UHGV virus genome: UHGV-0311442
DNA from: a virus
Length of the DNA stretch: 64,000 bases
Direction: 5' to 3' (one strand)
A program made the position numbers and the translations under genes. This document shows, one piece after another, positions 3,547-58,616 of this stretch. Under the pieces are notes generated by a model. The model was not told where the DNA came from. It saw only the letters and a list, made by a program, of their open reading frames with translations, and searched no databases. How positions within the stretch are numbered: the stretch's first letter is position 1; each line of letters opens with the position of its first letter.

Positions 3547-4002
3547 TCAGTACAAACACGATGTCAAGTATTGGTTATACGAATCGAGCAGTGTCTGACG
3601 GTCGGAACGGTAATTCCACAACAAATTATTGAGTTTACGCGATAAATCACGGCTAATCTCTTGGGGCGTTAAAGAACTTTCATCAAGAGATAAGCGTTCA
3701 GGTACAACATGTAACTTCGGTAACTCATAACGTTCACAAAGTGGAGCCAGCATTGGTGGGCTCCAGCCACGTTTAACGGCTTGTTGGTTTAAATTTCGGG
3801 TGTAGACATAAACGTAGTAAGCATAGGTGTTGACATCCGCAACATACTCACGCATTGCATTATTGTCAATTTTCCAATTCACCATTATTGGCGGTGTAGG
3901 AGGAAGTTCCAGTGGCCTATAAGCTGGACGTTTAACTTCGTCGCCGTAGCTATTACTCACCAACCCCACGAACACCATCATGATGAATAACAGCATTTTC
4001 AT
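3547..4002 (-). CDS. secreted protein (signal peptide), unknown function
   Basis: N-terminus MKMLLFIMMVFVGLVSNSYG; AAGGAG 6 nt upstream of ATG at 4002 (track start 4005 is TTG). Confidence 0.5.
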   Translation of the reverse strand: MKMLLFIMMVFVGLVSNSYGDEVKRPAYRPLELPPTPPIMVNWKIDNNAMREYVADVNTYAYYVYVYTRNLNQQAVKRGWSPPMLAPLCERYELPKLHVVPERLSLDESSLTPQEISRDLSRKLNNLLWNYRSDRQTLLDSYNQYLTSCLY

Positions 4003-4005
4003 CAA

Positions 4006-4509
4006 TCACTCCTTAGAAGACGTTAGCGTCTTTATGATCTCCTGTCGAAAACTGTTCGCATTTAAATTGCCAACAGGTCTCGCCGAAGCCTCTTTACGTT
4101 GTTCTGGTGTTGAAGCTGGATTAACAGGAGTTTCTGGTTTTGTCGAAGACAGATCCTTCGCCGTACCGCTCGCTTTCGATGAATTAAACGTGCTTTCATA
4201 TGGCGGTTTCTGGCCGAGGCAAACGAAGAGCCTGTCGTATAACTTCCCATTATCTTCTTTTAGTTTATCTCGATCTTGTTTCATCTCTTGGTAAGACTGC
4301 GACATATAAGTGTCATGAGACTGCACTGCAACGAGCGCGTGAAACTGTTGTACATAGGCGTAGGAGACGAAGCCAGAATACGACAACAAGATCGTGATGA
4401 TTAAAGTCATTATCTTGCTTGCTCTTGATACGTTTTCTCCTTCTCCTGGTTTAAATGCTTCCATTAACATCTGAAGGAAGAACGGAAGCACTTTAAAAAA
4501 TGAACCCAT
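4006..4509 (-). CDS. bitopic membrane protein with periplasmic coiled coil (i-spanin-like architecture)
   Basis: single hydrophobic helix IMTLIITILLSYSGFVSYAYV followed by charged coiled-coil-like segment; GAGGTGA RBS; stop overlaps RBS of next gene. Confidence 0.5.
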   Translation of the reverse strand: MGSFFKVLPFFLQMLMEAFKPGEGENVSRASKIMTLIITILLSYSGFVSYAYVQQFHALVAVQSHDTYMSQSYQEMKQDRDKLKEDNGKLYDRLFVCLGQKPPYESTFNSSKASGTAKDLSSTKPETPVNPASTPEQRKEASARPVGNLNANSFRQEIIKTLTSSKE

Positions 4510-15980: not shown

Positions 15981-16370
15981 TCAATGATCTAATTCAATAG
16001 CACCAGCCATCTTGCCCCGTTCTTCGATAACAATCAGATAACGGTCGCGAGATTTGCTTTTAGCGAGAGTTAAGACAACAGTAGGGTCGCATGTTTTCGT
16101 GGTGATAGGAAGAACCTCTCTTTCGACGGAATCGAGCAGAAAGTAATAACCTGCGGGACACATTGTGCCACCGTCAGCTTTTACCAGAATATAGCGCCCG
16201 TCTGCGCCGACTTCTTGGCAGATTGTTTCACCGACTTCGCAAACTTCAAACCCCGGAGGATTGTACTGATAATCGGTATTGTTGTTTGGGGTTAGCAGTA
16301 AATCGTTAACTTGAGTAGATGCTGCTACACTCAGGGAGAAGAAGAATGCTAAAACGCAGACGAGACGCAT
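15981..16370 (-). CDS. secreted protein 1 of 5 (signal peptide)
   Basis: MRLVCVLAFFFSLSVAAS; AAGGAG RBS. Confidence 0.55.
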   Translation of the reverse strand: MRLVCVLAFFFSLSVAASTQVNDLLLTPNNNTDYQYNPPGFEVCEVGETICQEVGADGRYILVKADGGTMCPAGYYFLLDSVEREVLPITTKTCDPTVVLTLAKSKSRDRYLIVIEERGKMAGAIELDH

Positions 16371-16380
16371 GAGTTACTCC

Positions 16381-16791
16381 TTAAATTTTAAGTTTATCCA
16401 TAGCTACAACGATAGGTTTTTCCGAAGTGTCTAATATCCCTACCATTGGCACACCATCTACGACTTCGAAGAATGGTTTGTTATTACCAGAGCATAGACG
16501 TTTGTCGTTGTATTCGAGACGTTGGGCCTTCCACGTTTCGAGGTTGAGTACAGACATTGGGCTGTCGTAGCACCAGGCACCACCTTGCTCAACGATGAAT
16601 ACGTATCTGCTACCTTTGTATTTAAACAGACTCTTCGCCTGACAGTACAACCCGTCAATTTCCGTACAATAGAAATCATCGGTGCTATTGACGTATTTAA
16701 TATTGTCTGGCAACTGAATCGTCTTTGCTGTAGCGTTGACAGAGAACAGAACAGCCATTGCAATGAGAAGAGTGTTGATGATAGTTTTCAT
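16381..16791 (-). CDS. secreted protein 2 of 5 (signal peptide)
   Basis: MKTIINTLLIAMAVLFSVNATA; AAGGA RBS. Confidence 0.55.
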   Translation of the reverse strand: MKTIINTLLIAMAVLFSVNATAKTIQLPDNIKYVNSTDDFYCTEIDGLYCQAKSLFKYKGSRYVFIVEQGGAWCYDSPMSVLNLETWKAQRLEYNDKRLCSGNNKPFFEVVDGVPMVGILDTSEKPIVVAMDKLKI

Positions 16792-16802
16792 GATAAAAGT
16801 CC

Positions 16803-17288
16803 TTAGTATTTAGATTGTTCTACGTATTTCTTAACCAGGTAAGCGAATTCAGCAACACCGATATCACCGAACCAAATCAGGTAACCGGGGTCGATGTTGT
16901 AGTAATAGCCGACGAGTTTCTTGGTGTGTGGGTTGTATAGCGTTACGATGTATTCCCAACCACAAGCGTTAGCTTTACAACCGCCGCTTTCAATCCAGAT
17001 TTTGTTGTTGATATTTACCGGATACATGTTACCGCCAGGGCCATCCATGTAACCTTTAGAGCCGAACATACCATCCAGTCCCACAGGGTCTAGTGTTTTA
17101 TCAACAACGGCTTTAAACGACTTATCGGTATCGTACAAGTCGTTGATGTTTGGGCACGCATTTGGCTGACCTTCCCAAGCGTTTCCATCGCAGGTAAGCA
17201 ATTCGTCTACGGAGGCCGCATCTACAGTTGGCGTGGCACCGATAAACAAGAAAACCAGAAAGAACATCAGTGTATGTAAACGTTTCAT
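16803..17288 (-). CDS. secreted Cys-containing protein 3 of 5 (signal peptide)
   Basis: MKRLHTLMFFLVFLFIGATPTVDAAS; AAGGAG RBS; several Cys in mature part. Confidence 0.55.
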   Translation of the reverse strand: MKRLHTLMFFLVFLFIGATPTVDAASVDELLTCDGNAWEGQPNACPNINDLYDTDKSFKAVVDKTLDPVGLDGMFGSKGYMDGPGGNMYPVNINNKIWIESGGCKANACGWEYIVTLYNPHTKKLVGYYYNIDPGYLIWFGDIGVAEFAYLVKKYVEQSKY

Positions 17289-17306
17289 TGTAACTACTCC
17301 TTTAGA

Positions 17307-17693
17307 TTATTCGGCAGGACGATTTAAGGTAACGCGTCCGATTAATTCGGCGTTGTGAAAGAAGTCCACAGCGGTATAATTACCAACGGATAATGGGTGA
17401 ATACTAACTGACATTACTTTCGGTTGTTCGCAAGCAATATCGGTTAGACGTTGGTAGACTTGCGCACGGGTGTCAGCAATGAGTAACCCCGTACACGCTT
17501 CACCACGCACTAAACGATAAACTTGCAGTTTACCGAAACTGCGCATTAACGTAGGCGTCTCATCCGGGTTGATAATCGGTGAGTCAGGAGCCGGTTCGTA
17601 ATAGCGGACATCCGAATCACCGAAAGCATAAGTGCCAGTAATTCCGACCGCACAGAAAATAATGATAGTATAAAGTATAGTTCTGATATTCAT
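17307..17693 (-). CDS. secreted protein 4 of 5 (signal peptide)
   Basis: MNIRTILYTIIIFCAVGITGTYAFG; start ambiguous (GTG 17699 or ATG 17693). Confidence 0.5.
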   Translation of the reverse strand: MNIRTILYTIIIFCAVGITGTYAFGDSDVRYYEPAPDSPIINPDETPTLMRSFGKLQVYRLVRGEACTGLLIADTRAQVYQRLTDIACEQPKVMSVSIHPLSVGNYTAVDFFHNAELIGRVTLNRPAE

Positions 17694-17721
17694 TTTCACG
17701 CACTCTAAAAAAGATTAATAG

Positions 17722-18183
17722 TTATTTGTTAGGACGGGTGTGCCCACAGTTTTGGAAGAAAGTTTCAGATAAACGATCGCCTTCTACGGTAAAGTTAGCG
17801 GCATCGTTACCATTGATACTCACACTGAAAGTTTTGGCATTACCGATAGCATTAACGAAAGCAACCCAAGCGTGTTCTGCCTTGTCACTACCGTCCACGG
17901 TAGGGATGTTATAGGTTTTGCCGTTTACGACAATATCCATCGTGTTATCTTCAGCGTTAGTTGCACCTACGGGTTCCCCGTAATACCAAACCATGCGACC
18001 GTAAAATTTGCGATTCGCAGTTTCAGTGTCACAGTTGATAGACAGTCCGTTTCCGGCGGTGTCTTCAATTTCGTAAACTGCCTGGCCAGGGTTTTGTATT
18101 TGTTCCCAGCTGTTGATAGCGGCGTGTGCAGTATTGAAACCGATTACGAAAAGGGCGATTAAAAAGGAAGTGAAGATTTTCAT
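17722..18183 (-). CDS. secreted protein 5 of 5 (signal peptide)
   Basis: MKIFTSFLIALFVIGFNTAHA; AAAGGAG RBS; first gene after promoter-like motif. Confidence 0.55.
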   Translation of the reverse strand: MKIFTSFLIALFVIGFNTAHAAINSWEQIQNPGQAVYEIEDTAGNGLSINCDTETANRKFYGRMVWYYGEPVGATNAEDNTMDIVVNGKTYNIPTVDGSDKAEHAWVAFVNAIGNAKTFSVSINGNDAANFTVEGDRLSETFFQNCGHTRPNK

Positions 18184-18230
18184 TGTTTTGCTCCTTTATG
18201 GCGTTAATGTATAAAGAGTTAATCGTAACT

Positions 18231-18267
18231 CTCACCTAAGTAATATATATCTGAAATTATTTTTAAT
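18231..18267 (-). promoter_or_regulatory. conserved promoter-like motif, copy 1
   Basis: minus-strand reading ATTTCAGATATATATTACTTAGGTGAG, then a 5'-UTR hairpin and RBS of 17722..18183. Confidence 0.45.
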
Positions 18268-42506: not shown

Positions 42507-43430
42507 ATGACAACCAATGCAGAACCAAGGTTATCGAATCGTTTATACGATAAACCCACCGTATTGTCCGTAGTCGCTACGTCCAAGTGTAACCTGGATT
42601 GTAGCTTCTGCGGTGGAGCCTATTACATGAATCGTGAAGATTCTCCGCGAGAGTTTCAACGTGAGCGAATTTTGGAAGCGCTGGAAGCTAATCCAACCAT
42701 TACCGAAATTCAGTGGACGGGTGGTGAGCCATTACTGGCAACCCGTAAAATTGAGGCGTTTGTTGACGAATTAAAAGTGATTCGTCCAGAACTCAAACAC
42801 CAGTTGTATACCAATGGCTTAAAGATGCGTAAATCGCATCTCCCGTTGCTAAAACAGTTTGACAATGTCTACGTTAGCATCGATGGGTTTAAGTCGTCTG
42901 AGCGCCCGTTTATGCGCTTTATTGACGAAGGCTGTTACGAAGCACTGGAAACGATCTACGAGCTGGATAATGTCCAGACTTGGGGTGTCCTGACACGGGA
43001 CCGTTTAGGGGACAAACGCTGGCACGAAGATATTATTCAGCTGCACAGCGCGATTTACCATTACGGTTTCCGTGCAATGACGTTACTCTTAGATGCGAAA
43101 ATGCCAAAACCTTTATCGCCTGACCACGTCATGAACTTTATTTACGGCTACTATCAGGTTCAGGACAACATTGAACGTCTGAATGTAGTAAATGGACGTG
43201 AATGTGGCTTTACGGTAAGTAAAGTGTTTGAAGAAGGGTGTAACGTTTGCAGCGAAAGTCTTTGGATTAATGCAGACGGTGGTGAGCACCAACTCCAGAA
43301 TGCACCTAACGTTCTGGAATCGGGATGTAACCAACTGGCCTTCTCTATCGGTGTAGAGGCGTACGAATATATTCGTCGCGTAGTGATGGCAGGACGTAAT
43401 AGAGGGGCGGCAAATGAGCCAAGCAAATGA
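42507..43430 (+). CDS. radical SAM enzyme (307 aa)
   Basis: CNLDCSFCGG (CxxxCxxC) and GGEPLL SAM-binding motif; extra C-terminal Cys (CNVCSE...GCNQ). Confidence 0.7.
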   Translation: MTTNAEPRLSNRLYDKPTVLSVVATSKCNLDCSFCGGAYYMNREDSPREFQRERILEALEANPTITEIQWTGGEPLLATRKIEAFVDELKVIRPELKHQLYTNGLKMRKSHLPLLKQFDNVYVSIDGFKSSERPFMRFIDEGCYEALETIYELDNVQTWGVLTRDRLGDKRWHEDIIQLHSAIYHYGFRAMTLLLDAKMPKPLSPDHVMNFIYGYYQVQDNIERLNVVNGRECGFTVSKVFEEGCNVCSESLWINADGGEHQLQNAPNVLESGCNQLAFSIGVEAYEYIRRVVMAGRNRGAANEPSK

Positions 43431-44736
43431 ATTCCCTAAGCAGTTAACGTATCAGATCGTAACCAACCTTTCGTGTAACCTGGACTGCGAATATTGTTAC
43501 GAACGTAAGTACCCGCGTAACAACAAAGCGGCCGACATTGTTGATTTCTTACACGCCTGTTTTGAACGTGATAAAAACGAACCGAATGTTGAAGTTATTA
43601 TCGACATTATCGGCGGTGAACCGTTCATGCAGCCTAAGTTGCTGCTGGCAGCGTTTGAAACCGCAGAGCAGTTGTGTAAAGAACACAACCGTCCGTTTAT
43701 GTTTAGTATCTCCACGAACGGGACCTTGTTAGATCGTCCGTTGAACCGTGAGATTGTAGAACGTTGGAAAGACAAACTTTCGGTTGGGGTTTCGATTGAT
43801 GGCTTGCCTGAGTCCCATGACCGTTATCGTATCTTCACAACAACGCGCCAGGGTTCTTACGAAGCCGCAGTACGTGGCTATAATTACTTAAAAGAGGTTG
43901 GCATTGCAGAACTCGGCGTAAAAGCGACCTTTACGTTAGAAACACTGCCGTTCTATGCTGCAGGGATGAAGTCATTAATTGACATTACTGGCGGTGGGAC
44001 AATTTCTGGGAACGTAACCTTCGAAGACGTTATGCCACGTAGCATGGCGACGTCAATCGCTTTACAGATGATGGATGTGATAGATTATTGGGTTGAGAAA
44101 GGATTACACACCAACCCACGTAATATCTTATCGCACATCATTCCAGAAGGGTTGGATTTCGATACGATTTGGGAACCGAACTGGCGTGACCAGTTACTGT
44201 ATAATGACACCGTACGGTTGAACCCAGAACGTTTACGTCCGTTCTGTGGGACGTTAACGCACATGACGTGCTTAGGATTTGACCGTAAGATCTTTGGCTG
44301 TAACCGCTTTATGTCAACGGTAACGTCGCGTTCTGCGGTGTTTGAGTTGGTAGGTCGGGAATTCGTCAGTCTGGACAACGGTAAATTGTTAGAAGAGATT
44401 CAAACGCAATATACCAACTACCCAGAGACCTGTTTAGGTTGTCCGATGAAACACGCTTGTGGTAGCTGTGCGGCGGCTTCTTACGAGAACGGGGAAGGAA
44501 CGTTAGAAGACCGTAAAGCGTATCACGCTGAACGTCGTCAGTGTGGCTGGACGACAGCGAAACTGATGGTGGCGGAATACTGGAAACAGAAGATGGGTAC
44601 GACGTCAGCAAAAGCGTTCCACGACACGAGCATGTGTTATTGCCCACGCTGTGTTCGTGAACGTGCCCAAAAGGAAAAATTATTAAGAGAAGCCAAAGAT
44701 GAAACCAATTCTGATCAACAATATTACGAAGCGTAG
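43414..44736 (+). CDS. radical SAM enzyme with SPASM-like C-terminal domain (440 aa)
   Basis: CNLDCEYCYE and GGEPF motifs; C-terminal CLGCPMKHACGSC cluster typical of SPASM/twitch auxiliary Fe-S domains; 17-nt overlap with upstream gene. Confidence 0.7.
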   Translation: MSQANEFPKQLTYQIVTNLSCNLDCEYCYERKYPRNNKAADIVDFLHACFERDKNEPNVEVIIDIIGGEPFMQPKLLLAAFETAEQLCKEHNRPFMFSISTNGTLLDRPLNREIVERWKDKLSVGVSIDGLPESHDRYRIFTTTRQGSYEAAVRGYNYLKEVGIAELGVKATFTLETLPFYAAGMKSLIDITGGGTISGNVTFEDVMPRSMATSIALQMMDVIDYWVEKGLHTNPRNILSHIIPEGLDFDTIWEPNWRDQLLYNDTVRLNPERLRPFCGTLTHMTCLGFDRKIFGCNRFMSTVTSRSAVFELVGREFVSLDNGKLLEEIQTQYTNYPETCLGCPMKHACGSCAAASYENGEGTLEDRKAYHAERRQCGWTTAKLMVAEYWKQKMGTTSAKAFHDTSMCYCPRCVRERAQKEKLLREAKDETNSDQQYYEA

Positions 44737-45982: not shown

Positions 45983-46513
45983 TTAGGACGTAAAACCGTC
46001 CAGCTCACCGTTGGTGGTGGCCAGGTCAATACGATTATCAACAACTTTCGGCGTAATTACGAAAGTTGCCATTACACCTGGTTTATAACGGAGGTTCTTT
46101 TCAGTAACGGTGCACGTTACCGTACGCAGAGTGACGTTTTCATGTTCGTCTTTCTGGTCTTCGGTGTTGTACACAACGTCGCCTGGTGCGATAGCATCGT
46201 TCGGTTTAACTTTATTGATGTAATATTGTAACCAAGCGCGCAGTTCATTTTCTTGAACCCAGCGAGACAGATCGTCAGTTAGTTCAATACGGCCTACAAC
46301 ACCCGGTTCCAGACGATCGTAATGCAGTTCGATTGCACCTTTGAAATTCTCAGAACCTGGTAGTGCAGTCATGGTAACTTTGGTATTCTTACCTTCGCCT
46401 TCCAGCGCAGTAGGGAGACCAAAGGACACTTCTTTATCAGTTACCTGATGTGGTAGCTCAGTGTTAGCAGCATTATAAAGCGCGACCAACATCATCTGGT
46501 TAGTAGCGGCCAT
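45983..46513 (-). CDS. five-member paralog family protein (176 aa)
   Basis: shares N-terminal pattern and ENFKG...HYxRL core with 46579..47109; similar to 49774, 50264, 61107. Confidence 0.55.
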   Translation of the reverse strand: MAATNQMMLVALYNAANTELPHQVTDKEVSFGLPTALEGEGKNTKVTMTALPGSENFKGAIELHYDRLEPGVVGRIELTDDLSRWVQENELRAWLQYYINKVKPNDAIAPGDVVYNTEDQKDEHENVTLRTVTCTVTEKNLRYKPGVMATFVITPKVVDNRIDLATTNGELDGFTS

Positions 46514-46561
46514 TATCTTAAATCCTCAATAGTACGAGTTAAAGAAATATCGGGGAGGTTA

Positions 46562-46571
46562 CCCCCCCCCC
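46562..46571. repeat. C10/G10 homopolymer tract in intergenic hairpin
   Basis: ten consecutive C on plus strand. Confidence 0.8.
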
Positions 46572-46578
46572 GATTTAA

Positions 46579-47109
46579 TTATTCTTTAGGAGACGGTGCG
46601 GTGAAGCCATCCAGTTCACCTTCCAAACCGCTCAGTGCTACTTTCTCAGGAGCCGGAGGAGTAACTTTATACGTCGCGACAGTACCAGGCAGGAACTTCA
46701 AGTGGCCAGCCACAACCGTTACCACGTAAATGGTTTTGCCTTCTTCTTCACGAGAAATAGTTTGCAGGTCGTTTTCACCGAACTCGTCATCGGTGTACCC
46801 TTTCTCAGCCATGGCTGCGTTAACTTTCGCCAGGATCTTCGTTGGTGAATCGAAATCGGTAGTAGGTGCAGTTACTTCAACTTCACCAACGATGTCGCAG
46901 GAAAGACGAGTATAGTGGAATTCTTTCTCGCCTTTGAAGTTCTGGCTTTCTGCCTTGGCGGTCAGAGTAATTTTAGTGTTGCGGCCAGCTTCTCCGGTGA
47001 ACTCAGCGACAGCACTAAAATTAACATCATTTACAGTCAACTTAGAAGCAGTTTGGTTGTTTTTAGCAATTACAATCTCGATAAGCTGCTGTTGAAAAGT
47101 TTTAGCCAT
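46579..47109 (-). CDS. five-member paralog family protein (176 aa)
   Basis: TKITLTAKAESQNFKGEKEFHYTRL aligns with TKVTMTALPGSENFKGAIELHYDRL in neighbour. Confidence 0.55.
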   Translation of the reverse strand: MAKTFQQQLIEIVIAKNNQTASKLTVNDVNFSAVAEFTGEAGRNTKITLTAKAESQNFKGEKEFHYTRLSCDIVGEVEVTAPTTDFDSPTKILAKVNAAMAEKGYTDDEFGENDLQTISREEEGKTIYVVTVVAGHLKFLPGTVATYKVTPPAPEKVALSGLEGELDGFTAPSPKE

Positions 47110-47248
47110 TGTTTTACCTCGTAAGTAGTATGGGTGGTTTGCATAGTATTGTTCGGATTATAGAAGTGTTGTTAATAGTTATGACAGACAGCAGTAAGGG
47201 TTGTCTGTAAAATTATTATTTTTTAACTTTTTATAGAAGGGTGAAAAC

Positions 47249-47728
47249 ATGCTAAAACGTTTTCTACTTGTTGTAACTGCAGCACTTTCGTTGGCAAGCT
47301 GTGCCCTACAACCCACCGCTAACGGTCAATTCTCGACTGTACCCGTAGAGCCACACGACATGGTTATTTACACCTGTATGGGTGTTGAGCAAGATTTTGC
47401 AAATTACAAACCTGTCGTCAGTTCGACTAACCTAATGTTAGGTTCAGTAACTGTAGTCGATACTGGTGCTAACTGGGTAGCCACTTGGCCAAACGGTAAG
47501 ATTGAATCACCACAACTTTATAAAGATCTATTAGGTAAAGTTAATGGGAATATCGATCCTATCACGGGACAACGTTACTACCGTGTAAATGGACTACTTT
47601 CAAAAACGCCAACATTTGCGTATTCTACTTTAGAATATAAAACGGGCGATGGTAAAGGCATTACTTTCTTCCACTGTAAGGAAGGTGTAGCTCCTGACAG
47701 TGGAACAATGCTCCATCCTGCGGAATAA
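47249..47728 (+). CDS. lipoprotein (159 aa)
   Basis: signal peptide with lipobox LASC (MLKRFLLVVTAALSLASC); own terminator; opposite strand to neighbours. Confidence 0.6.
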   Translation: MLKRFLLVVTAALSLASCALQPTANGQFSTVPVEPHDMVIYTCMGVEQDFANYKPVVSSTNLMLGSVTVVDTGANWVATWPNGKIESPQLYKDLLGKVNGNIDPITGQRYYRVNGLLSKTPTFAYSTLEYKTGDGKGITFFHCKEGVAPDSGTMLHPAE

Positions 47729-47735
47729 TAAAAAC

Positions 47736-47773
47736 TACCCTACTCCCGATAAGGAGTAGGGTATATTGATTTT
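47736..47773 (+). terminator. rho-independent terminator
   Basis: hairpin TACCCTACTCC-cgataa-GGAGTAGGGTA followed by TATTGATTTT. Confidence 0.6.
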
Positions 47774-47846: not shown

Positions 47847-48362
47847 TTAAATCTCGACTAAAGCGCTCCAATCGATTGGTTTTTGCTTAACCACTTTCAC
47901 AGTACCACGATTTGGTGACCAGAAAGTAATGTTAGGTTGATTACGAACGTCGATGTGTAACCAGCTGATGTCACATTCAATAAAGTGAATGAACGGAAAC
48001 TCATCAGGGTTAGCAGCGATATAGTCGTGAACCTGTTTTACGGTGCTATCCAACAACGTTGCATCAATTGCGTTACCGAATTTGTGTTGACTTCCTGAAT
48101 CGGCGTAAAGCTGTAACGCACGTTGTTTATAACTACCGCCCTTAGGCTTTTCTTGATTAATAAAGAAATCTAAAGTTCTTAGTCCGCGTTGTTGCGCAGC
48201 GGTTGAGTTAATCACCATTCTACCGAAACGGTTACGAATCTGTTGCAGTGAAATCATTAGCAACGGGTTCATAAACCGGATTGCAGAATCGCCGTATTTG
48301 GCAATATAAGACTGTGGTACTAACTCTCTGAGTTTAAAATTACTCGGATTTGGATGAAACAT
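47847..48362 (-). CDS. peptidase M15-family cell-wall peptidase
   Basis: SGSQHKFGNAIDA and WLHIDVR motifs (zinc ligands of M15 D,D-/L,D-peptidases); GGGAGGGAAG RBS. Confidence 0.6.
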   Translation of the reverse strand: MFHPNPSNFKLRELVPQSYIAKYGDSAIRFMNPLLMISLQQIRNRFGRMVINSTAAQQRGLRTLDFFINQEKPKGGSYKQRALQLYADSGSQHKFGNAIDATLLDSTVKQVHDYIAANPDEFPFIHFIECDISWLHIDVRNQPNITFWSPNRGTVKVVKQKPIDWSALVEI

Positions 48363-49005: not shown

Positions 49006-49121
49006 TACCCACACCTTCCCTTATAGAAACCAGAAAAATTCGCATCCACGCTTTTCGTCTTTACGTTTTCGTCCAGACGTTAACGCTTTCCACAATAGTG
49101 CTAAGAGTTTAGCAAACCAGT

Positions 49122-49712
49122 TCATTTTACTAACCCCGCCTTCACTACATAATCCGGCATTTCCCTGAACACACGTGCGTACCAGCCGTAAGCGAATTTT
49201 TCATTCTTCTTACGCTTTTCGGAGATTTCTGTGTAGTAGGTTACCTGGTGTGAGATTAACGCAAAGATTAAGATGCCTAACCCCTCGTCTTTACGGTAAT
49301 TCAGATAAGCATTCAGGGCACCTAGCGTTTTAGGTCCCATACCGCCGTCGGTGTCAATATCTGCGTAAAGTTTCCCTTCGTTATTTAAAACGTTCAGAAT
49401 ACGTTGTAACGATTTCACACAGTTAACGCGGCCAGAGTTAATAGCAAAATCAAACATCCGGTCTGCGAGTAAGGGTGAAATAGCTAAAATCTCATCGAGT
49501 TTAAGTTTCTTCCACCAACCGCGATCGTAAATATCAAACGCCTGCGCACGGGTCAGATCCTTCATTTTTCCTTTATACCCGTATTCGCGTGCAGTTGTTA
49601 GTGTTACACCGTGACAGGTTTCCCCACCTTTATCGTCAGGGTCGTTTACGTACCCGCCTTCTAAATCTGTTTTCGAAGCAATAATACCTTCTTTAGTCCA
49701 ACGTTCGGCCAT
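49122..49712 (-). CDS. GH108-type muramidase with peptidoglycan-binding domain (endolysin candidate)
   Basis: N-terminal DLEGGYVNDPDDKGGETCHGVT (EGGY catalytic motif of GH108) plus C-terminal PG-binding-like region; GAGGAG RBS. Confidence 0.7.
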   Translation of the reverse strand: MAERWTKEGIIASKTDLEGGYVNDPDDKGGETCHGVTLTTAREYGYKGKMKDLTRAQAFDIYDRGWWKKLKLDEILAISPLLADRMFDFAINSGRVNCVKSLQRILNVLNNEGKLYADIDTDGGMGPKTLGALNAYLNYRKDEGLGILIFALISHQVTYYTEISEKRKKNEKFAYGWYARVFREMPDYVVKAGLVK

Positions 49713-54676: not shown

Positions 54677-54710
54677 CTCACCTAAGTAATATATATCTGA
54701 AATTATTTTT
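54677..54710 (-). promoter_or_regulatory. conserved promoter-like motif, copy 3
   Basis: minus-strand reading AATAATTTCAGATATATATTACTTAGGTGAGAG, then hairpin and RBS of 54135..54629. Confidence 0.45.
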
Positions 54711-58584: not shown

Positions 58585-58616
58585 CTCCCCTAGGTAATAT
58601 ATATCTGAGAAAAAAT
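58585..58616 (-). promoter_or_regulatory. conserved promoter-like motif, copy 4
   Basis: minus-strand reading TTCTCAGATATATATTACCTAGGGGAGAG then hairpin GAGTGAA...TTCACTC and RBS. Confidence 0.45.

What the first reader, a model, noticed from the sequence alone, without database searches (positions are those of the whole stretch)
47249..47728. Isolated lipoprotein gene in opposite orientation
A 159-aa protein with a clear lipobox (LASC) is transcribed against its neighbours, with its own divergent promoter region and terminator, between fibre-related genes and the cell-wall module. Phage outer-membrane lipoproteins in such positions often mediate superinfection exclusion by masking the receptor or act as spanin components.
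Basis: partly seen in the sequence, partly recalled or inferred. Interest (0 to 1): 0.5.

Follow-up and report, generated by a model that had tools for sequence, protein, structure and literature searches.

The report
Conserved jumbo-phage outer-membrane lipoprotein gene
This is a real, well-conserved gene for a small lipid-anchored protein that an SPN3US-like giant phage of Salmonella/E. coli exports to the host envelope; it probably blocks phage entry, it is almost certainly not a spanin, and its function has not been tested.

Summary
The ORF at 47249..47728 (+) is real: 159 aa, with a textbook lipoprotein signal (MLKRFLLVVTAALSLAS|C18). It is the only credible lipobox ORF in the 64 kb window. 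It is under purifying selection (dN/dS about 0.1), and 29 of 30 homologues keep the lipobox. None has Asp at +2, which predicts an outer-membrane anchor.

The window comes from an SPN3US-like nucleus-forming jumbo phage. The protein is the orthologue of SPN3US gp159 (PHROG 9559, unknown function; no Pfam, NCBIfam or PADLOC hit). A confident AlphaFold model shows a small all-beta barrel with two invariant cysteines and no specific structural relative.

The gene is a single-gene unit between minus-strand genes and has a conserved terminator hairpin. It lacks the phage's early-promoter motif.

In SPN3US-like and Erwinia-phage lineages its constant neighbour is a divergently transcribed small DUF7941 virion-protein gene. 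In distant lineages it lies directly behind tail-fibre or DUF7941 adhesin genes. SPN3US gp159 is not listed in the virion proteome.

A separate spanin-like gene pair exists elsewhere (window 3547..4509), so the spanin reading is unlikely. The best hypothesis is an Llp/Cor-like entry or receptor blocker, held at moderate confidence and untested. Interest is moderate.

The parts
47249..47728 (+). Coding sequence of the 159-aa prolipoprotein, orthologue of SPN3US gp159 (AEP83992), PHROG 9559.
   Evidence: ORF. PHROG 9559 at E 3e-64. Homologues in 55 phage records, all about 190-250 kb jumbo phages of Salmonella, Erwinia, Escherichia and Proteus. dN/dS about 0.1.
47249..47302 (+). Signal peptide with lipobox L15-A16-S17-C18. 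Predicted signal peptidase II cleavage before Cys18, with Ala at +2.
   Evidence: Pattern match in 29 of 30 family members and no Asp at +2. C18 is invariant in the alignments.
47303..47725 (+). Mature domain. Small all-beta barrel with invariant Cys43 and Cys143 (a likely disulfide, inferred) and the highly conserved stretch ESPQLYKDLLGK(V/I)(N/D)G (residues 86-100).
   Evidence: AlphaFold2 on 30 sequences gave mean pLDDT 83.7 with the core above 90 and 10-11 strands. Invariant columns are listed.
47236..47243 (+). Shine-Dalgarno-like GAAGGGTG, about 7 nt before the ATG.
   Evidence: Read from the sequence. AAGGGTGA is kept in close relatives.
47180..47208 (+). Conserved TATGAC block followed by a small hairpin (ACAGACA...TGTCTGT), 66 nt upstream of the ATG. 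Candidate late-type (TATG) start region.
   Evidence: It is the only invariant block of the upstream region across five phages. The hairpin has 3 compensated pairs among 5 sequences. The phiKZ late-promoter element TATG is described in PMC7598289. The evidence is weak.
47736..47763 (.). GC-rich hairpin with T-rich flanks on both strands, acting as a bidirectional intrinsic terminator between the convergent genes.
   Evidence: z -6.5. A hairpin sits at the same position with different stem sequences in L013, L010, SPN3US, Asesino and L007.
46579..47109 (-). Divergently transcribed small DUF7941 gene (176 aa), the conserved partner of the lipoprotein gene in SPN3US-like and Erwinia-phage lineages. 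Orthologous in position to SPN3US gp160.
   Evidence: DUF7941 and PHROG 4862 hits. The 'DUF7941< LIPO>' pair is kept through three different locus arrangements. SPN3US gp160 is an abundant virion protein that is also present in tailless particles.

Best explanation
The gene encodes a non-virion accessory lipoprotein made during infection by an SPN3US-like nucleus-forming jumbo phage.

Proposed mechanism. The precursor is exported through Sec, lipid-modified on Cys18 and cut by signal peptidase II. Because it has Ala rather than Asp at +2, the Lol pathway should carry it to the outer membrane. There it would display a 142-aa disulfide-stabilised beta barrel. I propose that this barrel binds a conserved envelope component used for phage entry. 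That would make the infected or lysing cell and its debris non-productive for further adsorption or DNA injection by the same or related phages. This is functionally like T5 Llp or the Cor proteins of T1, phi80 and N15, but uses an unrelated and larger protein.

Shown here: the ORF, the conserved lipobox, purifying selection, restriction of the family to jumbo phages, the gene-neighbourhood pattern, the terminator, and the absence of the early-promoter motif. gp159 is also not listed in the SPN3US virion mass-spectrometry table.

Inferred only: lipid modification and outer-membrane sorting, the disulfide, late or continuous expression, and the entire entry-blocking function and its target.
For: Lipoprotein signal.
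- It is present in 29 of 30 homologues, and none has Asp at +2.

Distribution and virion status.
- The family occurs only on jumbo-phage contigs or short fragments. There are 14 representative clusters among 1.84 billion proteins, 30 clusters, and 16 IMG/VR loci on 107-248 kb contigs.
- SPN3US gp159 is not listed among the virion proteins, whereas its neighbour gp160 is abundant (Table S4 of PMC5105663).

Gene neighbourhood.
- The gene tracks the virion adhesin and fibre gene cluster through several rearrangements. It is divergent from a small DUF7941 gene in all SPN3US-like and Erwinia lineages. It lies immediately downstream, on the same strand, of a 1172-aa tail-fibre gene plus a Caudo_TAP gene (L004, L028, L029), or of large DUF7941 proteins (L005, L006, L007).
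- DUF7941 N-terminal domains are fused to receptor-binding-type domains: GP38 adhesin in SPN3US gp155, a tailspike TIM barrel, DUF285, and a faint LRR_5 hit.
- The flanking DUF7941 gene is hypervariable, at 57% identity between phages that are otherwise 95-100% identical. This is typical of a host-interaction hotspot.
- Placement at the end of fibre operons resembles cor in T1, phi80 and N15 (own knowledge).

Carriage in isolates.
- The same lipoprotein clusters occur on 220-247 kb contigs in many Salmonella, E. coli and Shigella isolate assemblies. An exclusion function would be useful in such carried phages.
Against: No similarity to known exclusion proteins.
- There are no Pfam, NCBIfam or PADLOC hits and no sequence match to any solved structure.

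Expression timing.
- The gene lacks the early-promoter motif found three times in the window. Classical early exclusion as in T5 is therefore not indicated.

The neighbourhood argument is weaker than it looks.
- The DUF7941 neighbours are head-associated in SPN3US, so 'next to the receptor-binding protein' is not established.
- The reported SPN3US receptor is the flagellum (PMC11428620). An outer-membrane lipoprotein does not obviously mask a flagellum.
- The lipoprotein does not co-vary with the adjacent DUF7941 gene.
- Its most conserved motif is shared by phages of different host genera. That fits a conserved target better than a variable receptor.
Confidence: 0.4

Rival explanations
1. Lysis component: the lipoprotein is an o-spanin or another outer-membrane disruptor that works with the nearby cell-wall hydrolases at the end of infection.
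For: It is a predicted outer-membrane lipoprotein lying within 2 kb of an M15-like peptidase and a GH108+PG_binding_3 enzyme. It has no early-promoter motif. No holin or spanin is annotated anywhere in SPN3US. In the window's lineage the other spanin-like lipoprotein has lost its lipobox cysteine.
Against: No gene for an N-terminally membrane-anchored partner is adjacent in any of 29 loci. The mature domain is a folded 142-aa barrel with an apparently intramolecular cysteine pair. There is no C-terminal transmembrane segment. A separate adjacent pair, a TMD plus coiled-coil protein followed by a lipoprotein, exists in SPN3US and relatives. Linkage to the hydrolase genes is broken in many lineages and absent in the distant ones.
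Confidence: 0.12
2. Periplasmic inhibitor of a peptidoglycan hydrolase (analogous to T4 Spackle, or to MliC/PliC). It would neutralise the tail-associated M15-like enzyme or the GH108 enzyme, either of incoming phages or as protection against premature self-lysis.
For: The gene converges on the M15-like gene in SPN3US-like phages and in L007. SPN3US gp158 is a low-copy tail protein (PMC5105663). The fold is a small beta barrel, as in MliC. There is a weak Foldseek hit to an RB49 protein named 'LprI-like lysozyme inhibitor' (E 7e-4).
Confidence: 0.12
3. Another envelope-directed role not tied to entry or lysis. Examples are a lipocalin-like ligand or lipid binder, or a modulator of a host envelope machine such as the flagellar basal body, Lpt or Bam. 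Such a role would benefit phage production or carriage.
For: The generic structural neighbours are ligand-binding or surface-lipoprotein barrels: lipocalins, nitrobindin, YceI, and the NHBA and TbpB barrels. The strongly conserved motif across host genera suggests a conserved target. The phage also encodes an early operon of four other exported proteins, so envelope remodelling appears to be a broader theme.
Confidence: 0.3
4. The N-terminus is not processed as a lipoprotein and the protein acts in the cytoplasm or in the virion.
For: Processing was not tested. Two public TPA records name the cluster 'adhesin'.
Against: The lipobox is conserved through 30-96% sequence identity. Two further cysteines are invariant, which fits an oxidising compartment. 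The protein is not listed among SPN3US virion proteins.
Confidence: 0.04

Closest known systems
Phage T5 Llp (receptor-blocking lipoprotein) and the equivalent lipoproteins of T5-like phages such as BF23
   Same: A lytic-phage-encoded outer-membrane lipoprotein with conserved cysteines. It is transcribed as its own small unit, in the opposite orientation, beside host-recognition genes, and is not part of the virion.
   Different: No sequence or fold similarity was found. The mature protein is 142 aa against about 60 aa. Llp is an early gene, whereas this gene lacks the early-promoter motif. The receptor is unknown, and the reported SPN3US receptor is the flagellum. Statements about Llp itself come from my own knowledge.
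Cor lipoproteins of T1, phi80, N15 and HK022 (FhuA-dependent exclusion)
   Same: A small outer-membrane lipoprotein gene at the end of a tail-fibre or late structural gene block. In the distant lineages L004 and L028 the gene lies directly after the fibre gene and its Caudo_TAP gene on the same strand; in L029 it lies directly after the fibre gene.
   Different: The sequence is unrelated (no Pfam hit) and about twice the size. It occurs in strictly lytic jumbo phages. Function is untested.
Two-component spanin outer-membrane subunit (lambda Rz1 type) and unimolecular spanin (T1 gp11 type)
   Same: An outer-membrane lipoprotein signal and proximity to muralytic enzyme genes.
   Different: There is no adjacent or embedded i-spanin gene, no C-terminal transmembrane segment, and the domain is a folded barrel rather than a short extended one. 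A better spanin-like pair lies elsewhere in these genomes.
MliC/PliC lysozyme-inhibitor lipoproteins and T4 Spackle
   Same: A small periplasm-facing protein, here a beta barrel as in MliC, encoded close to peptidoglycan hydrolase genes.
PHROG 9559 (SPN3US gp159, Asesino gp174, Wellington gp172; named 'Lipoprotein' in UniProt)
   Same: Direct membership: E 3e-64 over the full length, 45-63% identity to named phage proteins, and the same synteny.
   Different: None. However, the family has no assigned function, and no paper dealing with it turned up in the searches.

Membership tests
Bacterial-type lipoprotein (signal peptidase II substrate) | A basic n-region, an uncharged hydrophobic h-region, and a lipobox [LVI][ASTVI][GAS]-C with the Cys at position 15-35. 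| tested here: met
   MLKR / FLLVVTAALS / LAS-C18. The PROSITE-type pattern matches in 29 of 30 homologues. It is the only credible lipobox ORF in the window.
Bacterial-type lipoprotein (signal peptidase II substrate) | Actual diacylglyceryl modification and globomycin-sensitive cleavage. | not testable with these tools
   This needs labelling and processing experiments.
Outer-membrane-sorted lipoprotein (Lol pathway, +2 rule of Enterobacterales) | No Asp at position +2 after the lipidated Cys. | tested here: met
   The +2 residue is Ala here. Across the family it is A (22), S (4), T (2) and Q (1), with no D. The rule itself is established knowledge; localisation was not measured.
PHROG 9559 | A significant full-length match to the family profile. 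| tested here: met
   E 3.2e-64, residues 2-149 against profile positions 2-151 of 166.
Two-component spanin, o-spanin subunit (Rz1-like) | The gene is embedded in, overlaps, or directly follows on the same strand a gene for an i-spanin (N-terminal transmembrane domain plus coiled-coil periplasmic domain). | tested here: not met
   The neighbours are soluble DUF7941 and M15-like proteins on the other strand. No protein with a transmembrane segment is adjacent. The same holds in 29 loci.
Two-component spanin, o-spanin subunit (Rz1-like) | A short, largely unstructured, often proline-rich mature domain. | tested here: not met
   The mature domain is 142 aa and is predicted with high confidence to be a 10-11-strand beta barrel.
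Unimolecular spanin (T1 gp11-like) | A lipoprotein signal plus a C-terminal transmembrane anchor. | tested here: not met
   A hydropathy scan finds no transmembrane segment in this ORF. The C-terminus is polar (KEGVAPDSGTMLHPAE).
T5 Llp / Cor receptor-blocking lipoproteins | Sequence or fold homology to Llp or Cor. | tested here: not met
T5 Llp / Cor receptor-blocking lipoproteins | The gene lies next to the receptor-binding protein gene. | tested here: inconclusive
   The gene is always within or at the edge of the DUF7941 adhesin-type cluster, and directly after a tail fibre plus its chaperone in one lineage. But the DUF7941 proteins are head-associated in SPN3US, and the true receptor-binding protein is unknown.
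T5 Llp / Cor receptor-blocking lipoproteins | Expression blocks adsorption or DNA entry of the cognate phage. | not testable with these tools
   This needs expression in the host and plating and adsorption assays.
MliC/PliC lysozyme inhibitors | A match to the MliC family profile or its conserved inhibitory motifs, or a specific fold match. | tested here: not met
Known anti-phage defence proteins (PADLOC) | A match to any PADLOC model. | tested here: not met
   No families at E up to 1.

The most novel reading that the evidence does not exclude
This family would be the first entry-blocking (superinfection-exclusion or progeny-protection) factor of nucleus-forming jumbo phages. It would be an outer-membrane beta-barrel lipoprotein unrelated to Llp or Cor. 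Its near-invariant ESPQLYKDLLGK motif would target an envelope component conserved across Salmonella, E. coli, Shigella, Proteus and Erwinia. It might then exclude a broad set of phages, which would be relevant to the frequent carriage of these roughly 225 kb phages in clinical and food isolates.
Probability: 0.25. Interest if true: 0.55.

Novelty: new variant of a known kind. Interest (0 to 1): 0.35.

Why it matters
A 2026 review of jumbo phages does not mention spanins, holins, lipoproteins or superinfection at all, so lysis and exclusion look poorly described in nucleus-forming jumbo phages. This gene is one of only two credible lipoprotein genes in the SPN3US genome. It is conserved across several jumbo-phage genera. 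It also occurs in phages found in many Salmonella, E. coli and Shigella isolate assemblies.

If it blocks entry, it would affect the design of phage cocktails that use SPN3US-like phages. It would also point to the envelope component these phages depend on.

If it does not block entry, it is still a cheap and well-defined target for a first functional test: a single gene with no known relatives and a clear predicted location.

Tried and rejected
Searches that gave nothing specific.
- Pfam, NCBIfam and PADLOC scans of the protein, and Pfam scans of all 30 family members at a lax threshold. The only hits were to the lipid-attachment site itself.
- A profile search against all solved-structure sequences found nothing beyond chance.
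- A first AlphaFold run on 9 sequences was too uncertain to use (pLDDT 61.5). It was replaced by the 30-sequence run.

Promoter checks.
- The sigma-70 scan was at chance level and is irrelevant for this phage group.
- I tested whether the conserved upstream TATGAC is a repeated promoter motif in the window. It is not: 6 matches against 16.5 expected.

Other checks.
- I looked for paralogues of the lipoprotein in the window, including the four other exported proteins. There are none.
- I tested co-variation with the adjacent DUF7941 gene. There is none.
- Literature searches for SPN3US gp159, lipoprotein, and jumbo-phage exclusion found no paper dealing with this protein.
- The SPN3US infection time-course proteome (PMC6384053) is not held in the library, so expression timing could not be read.

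Full report
**What is there**

A purine-rich ribosome-binding site, GAAGGGTG, lies about 7 nt upstream.

The N-terminus MLKRFLLVVTAALSLAS-C18 has two basic residues, an uncharged hydrophobic stretch and an L-A-S-C lipobox. It matches the PROSITE-type lipoprotein pattern.

This is not a chance match.
- A scan of every possible start codon in the 64 kb found only this ORF plus one implausible 55-aa ORF.
- The gene evolves under purifying selection: dN 0.019 against dS 0.181 relative to its closest relative.
- 29 of 30 homologues, down to 29% identity, keep a lipobox at the same place.
- The residue after the lipidated Cys is A, S, T or Q and never Asp. By the established +2 rule of Enterobacterales this predicts transfer to the outer membrane. 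That step is an inference.

**What phage this is**

The window is not close to any deposited phage at the DNA level. The best match is 76% identity over 450 bp to Salmonella phages STsAS and SPAsTU.

The protein has homologues in 55 phage records. All are about 190-250 kb phages of Salmonella, Erwinia, Escherichia and Proteus, including SPN3US, phiEaH2, Asesino, Wellington and ChrisDB. These are phiKZ-like phages. SPN3US is placed in Seoulvirus, family Chimalliviridae (PMC11428620).

The orthologue in SPN3US is gp159 (SPN3US_0159, AEP83992). In Asesino it is gp174. Gene order around it is the same as in the window.

Closer relatives, at 93-96% identity, lie on 220-226 kb contigs from metagenomes. 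They also occur in many Salmonella, Shigella and E. coli isolate assemblies.

**The family**

The protein belongs to PHROG 9559, function unknown (E 3e-64). It has no Pfam, NCBIfam or PADLOC match, even when all 30 members are scanned at lax thresholds.

An exhaustive HMMER search of 1.84 billion representative proteins found only 14 clusters. A profile search of the 5.8-billion-protein set found 30. Every member with a long contig sits on a jumbo-phage-sized contig.

The invariant positions are the lipidated C18, two further cysteines (C43 and C143), several glycines, and a strikingly conserved stretch ESPQLYKDLLGK(V/I)(N/D)G.

**Structure**

AlphaFold2 on nine sequences gave a poor model (pLDDT 61.5). 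On 30 sequences it gave a confident one: mean pLDDT 83.7, with the core above 90. The model has an N-terminal signal helix, a disordered tether and 10-11 beta strands.

C43 lies in the long strand at residues 39-51 and C143 in the last strand, so a disulfide closing the barrel is likely. This is inferred; the coordinates could not be inspected.

Fold searches found no specific relative.
- Foldseek against the PDB gives nothing better than E 0.03.
- The viral structure library returns the protein's own family plus weak hits to uncharacterised phage proteins. One of these is an RB49 protein named as an LprI-like lysozyme inhibitor (E 7e-4).
- A profile search of all solved-structure sequences finds nothing.

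The fold tells us this is a soluble barrel tethered to a membrane. It does not tell us the function.

**Transcription signals**

The gene is a single plus-strand gene between minus-strand genes.

Seven nucleotides after its stop codon there is a GC-rich hairpin at 47736-47763, with T-rich sequence on both sides. A hairpin sits at the same place in five further loci: four related phages and a near-identical relative of the window phage. The stems differ in sequence, and there is usually a U-rich tail. The terminator is therefore real and conserved.

Sigma-70-like promoter matches are at chance level. They are also beside the point, because these phages transcribe with their own polymerases (PMC7598289).

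That review states that early promoters of such phages are a conserved AT-rich motif of about 10 nt, and that phiKZ late promoters carry only TATG at the start site. The window has an obvious repeated motif, AGATATATATTAC. It lies upstream of three minus-strand genes, at 18240, 54686 and 58594. The motif is absent upstream of the lipoprotein gene.

The only block conserved upstream of the lipoprotein gene in five phages is TATGAC at 47180-47185, followed by a small hairpin. This is compatible with a late-type start but is weak evidence. TATGAC is not a repeated motif in the window.

In distant relatives the gene follows virion genes on the same strand after gaps of only 13-88 nt. This again suggests expression together with late genes.

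**Neighbourhood across 29 loci**

I labelled the neighbouring genes in 29 loci using profiles built from the window's own genes. The block containing the two radical-SAM genes, the DUF4376 gene, the GH108 enzyme and the DUF1353 protein moves and inverts between genera. The M15-like peptidase gene is missing from the locus in many of them.

What stays constant in all SPN3US-like and Erwinia-phage lineages is a small DUF7941 gene (166-191 aa) transcribed divergently from the lipoprotein gene.

In the distant lineages, at 30-33% identity, the arrangement differs but the theme is the same.
- In L004 and L028 the lipoprotein gene lies directly after a tail-fibre gene (1172 aa in L004, 1324 aa in L028) and its Caudo_TAP assembly gene; in L029 it lies directly after the 1174-aa fibre gene.
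- In L005, L006 and L007 it lies among large DUF7941 proteins.

DUF7941 is an N-terminal module fused to adhesin-type domains. These are GP38 in SPN3US gp155, a tailspike-like TIM barrel, DUF285, and a faint LRR_5 hit.

The DUF7941 gene next to the lipoprotein gene is hypervariable. It is 57% identical between phages whose other genes are 95-100% identical, and its copy number varies from one to three.

In SPN3US the whole family (gp138-gp155 and gp160) was found in tailless particles. It is therefore head-associated, not tail fibre (PMC5105663, Table S4).

The same table lists no gp156, gp157 or gp159. The lipoprotein was therefore not detected as a virion component. gp158, the M15-like protein, was detected at 2-3 spectra and only in tailed particles.

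**Testing the spanin idea**

No gene encoding an N-terminally anchored membrane protein lies next to the lipoprotein gene in any locus. The protein has no C-terminal membrane segment. It is a folded barrel.

I then scanned the whole SPN3US genome. It has only two credible lipoprotein genes.
- One is gp159.
- The other is at 180497..180976. It directly follows a gene for a protein with an N-terminal transmembrane helix and a coiled-coil region. This is the classical 'separated' two-component spanin layout, although both are PHROGs of unknown function.

Homologues of that pair lie in the window at 4006..4509 and 3547..4005 on the minus strand.

This second family carries a lipobox in SPN3US and the Erwinia phages. 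In the window's own lineage the cysteine is gone and the signal looks like an ordinary secretory one (VSNSYG|DE).

Whatever that means, it makes the 47249 gene an unlikely spanin. The 47249 family is present in both kinds of lineage, so it does not substitute for the lost anchor.

**Testing the hydrolase-inhibitor idea**

Linkage to the M15-like and GH108 genes is not conserved. There is no MliC or PliC signal in sequence or fold. The idea remains possible but is not favoured.

**Best reading**

The evidence is: a non-virion, outer-membrane-directed, disulfide-containing barrel, made by lytic jumbo phages, genetically tied to the variable virion-adhesin cluster, and placed at the end of fibre operons in distant relatives.

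The closest functional analogy is therefore the receptor- or entry-blocking lipoproteins Llp (T5) and Cor (T1, phi80, N15). These prevent re-infection and the loss of progeny on cell debris.

I hold this at about 0.4, for four reasons.
- There is no homology to those proteins.
- Early expression is not indicated.
- The reported SPN3US receptor is the flagellum.
- The strongly conserved motif suggests a target conserved across host genera rather than a variable receptor.

A broader 'other envelope function' alternative is nearly as likely.

**Novelty and verdict**

No paper dealing with this protein turned up in the literature searches. A 2026 review of jumbo phages mentions neither lipoproteins, spanins, holins nor superinfection.

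The gene is a member of an uncharacterised jumbo-phage lipoprotein family. That makes it a new variant of the known class of phage-encoded outer-membrane lipoproteins. Interest is moderate (0.35). It is a clean, cheap experimental target, but nothing here is mechanistically surprising yet.

Noticed in passing
window 3547..4509 (minus strand); SPN3US NC_027402 180017..180976: This is an adjacent gene pair with two-component spanin architecture. 4006..4509 encodes a protein with an N-terminal transmembrane helix plus a coiled coil, and 3547..4005 encodes an exported protein. The second family has a lipobox in SPN3US and the Erwinia phages. In the window's lineage the cysteine is lost and the signal looks like an ordinary secretory one (VSNSYG|DE). 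Both are PHROGs of unknown function.
   Followed up: partly
window 49024..49125 (minus strand): An unlisted 34-aa ORF (MNWFAKLLALLWKALTSGRKRKDEKRGCEFFWFL) overlaps the stop codon of the GH108 gene. It is conserved in close relatives, and an ORF of the same size lies at the same position in Asesino (gp172). It is amphipathic and strongly basic, so it is a candidate small membrane-active lysis peptide. It has no PHROG hit.
   Followed up: partly
window 15981..18248 (minus strand): An early-type promoter motif (AGATATATATTAC at 18240) heads a tightly packed run of genes. The run is 17722..18183 followed by four small cysteine-containing proteins with ordinary signal peptides (17307..17699, 16803..17288, 16381..16791, 15981..16370). 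They are not detectably related to each other or to the lipoprotein. These are early exported proteins of unknown role.
   Followed up: partly
window 18240-18248, 54686-54694, 58594-58602 (minus strand): Three copies of a long conserved AT-rich motif (…TTTCAGATATATATTAC(T/C)TAGG(T/G)GAGAG…) lie about 55-60 nt upstream of minus-strand genes. This matches the description of early promoters recognised by the virion RNA polymerase in phiKZ-like phages.
   Followed up: partly
window 45983..47109 (minus strand); L010-L018: The small DUF7941 paralogues next to the lipoprotein gene vary from one to three copies between close relatives. The copy adjacent to the lipoprotein gene is only 57% identical between phages that are otherwise 95-100% identical. 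This is a local hotspot of replacement.
   Followed up: partly
SPN3US locus L001 8772..10949 (gp155) and Table S4 of PMC5105663: SPN3US gp155 combines the DUF7941 N-terminal module with a GP38-type tail-fibre adhesin domain. Yet it, gp138-154 and gp160 are all found in tailless particles. This suggests adhesin-bearing proteins on the head of a flagellotropic phage.
   Followed up: no
window 42507..44736 (plus strand): Two adjacent radical-SAM genes, the second with a cysteine-rich C-terminal region, are conserved in this virion-protein locus in all SPN3US-like and Erwinia-phage loci examined and in the distant L007. Their substrate is unknown.
   Followed up: no
protein clusters P0001, P0002, P0037: The lipoprotein clusters have 119-308 member sequences. 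The named members read lie on 220-247 kb contigs in assemblies of Salmonella enterica (many serovars), E. coli and Shigella isolates. These jumbo phages therefore seem to be frequently carried along with cultured isolates. Two public TPA records name the protein 'adhesin'.
   Followed up: no
window 47847..48362 (minus strand): This 171-aa neighbour hits the endolysin PHROG 894 (E 6e-28), and its SPN3US orthologue hits Pfam Peptidase_M15_3 only weakly. It carries an SQHKFGNAID stretch that resembles the zinc-binding motif of LAS-type peptidases (own knowledge). Its SPN3US orthologue gp158 is a very low-copy protein found only in tailed virions.
   Followed up: partly
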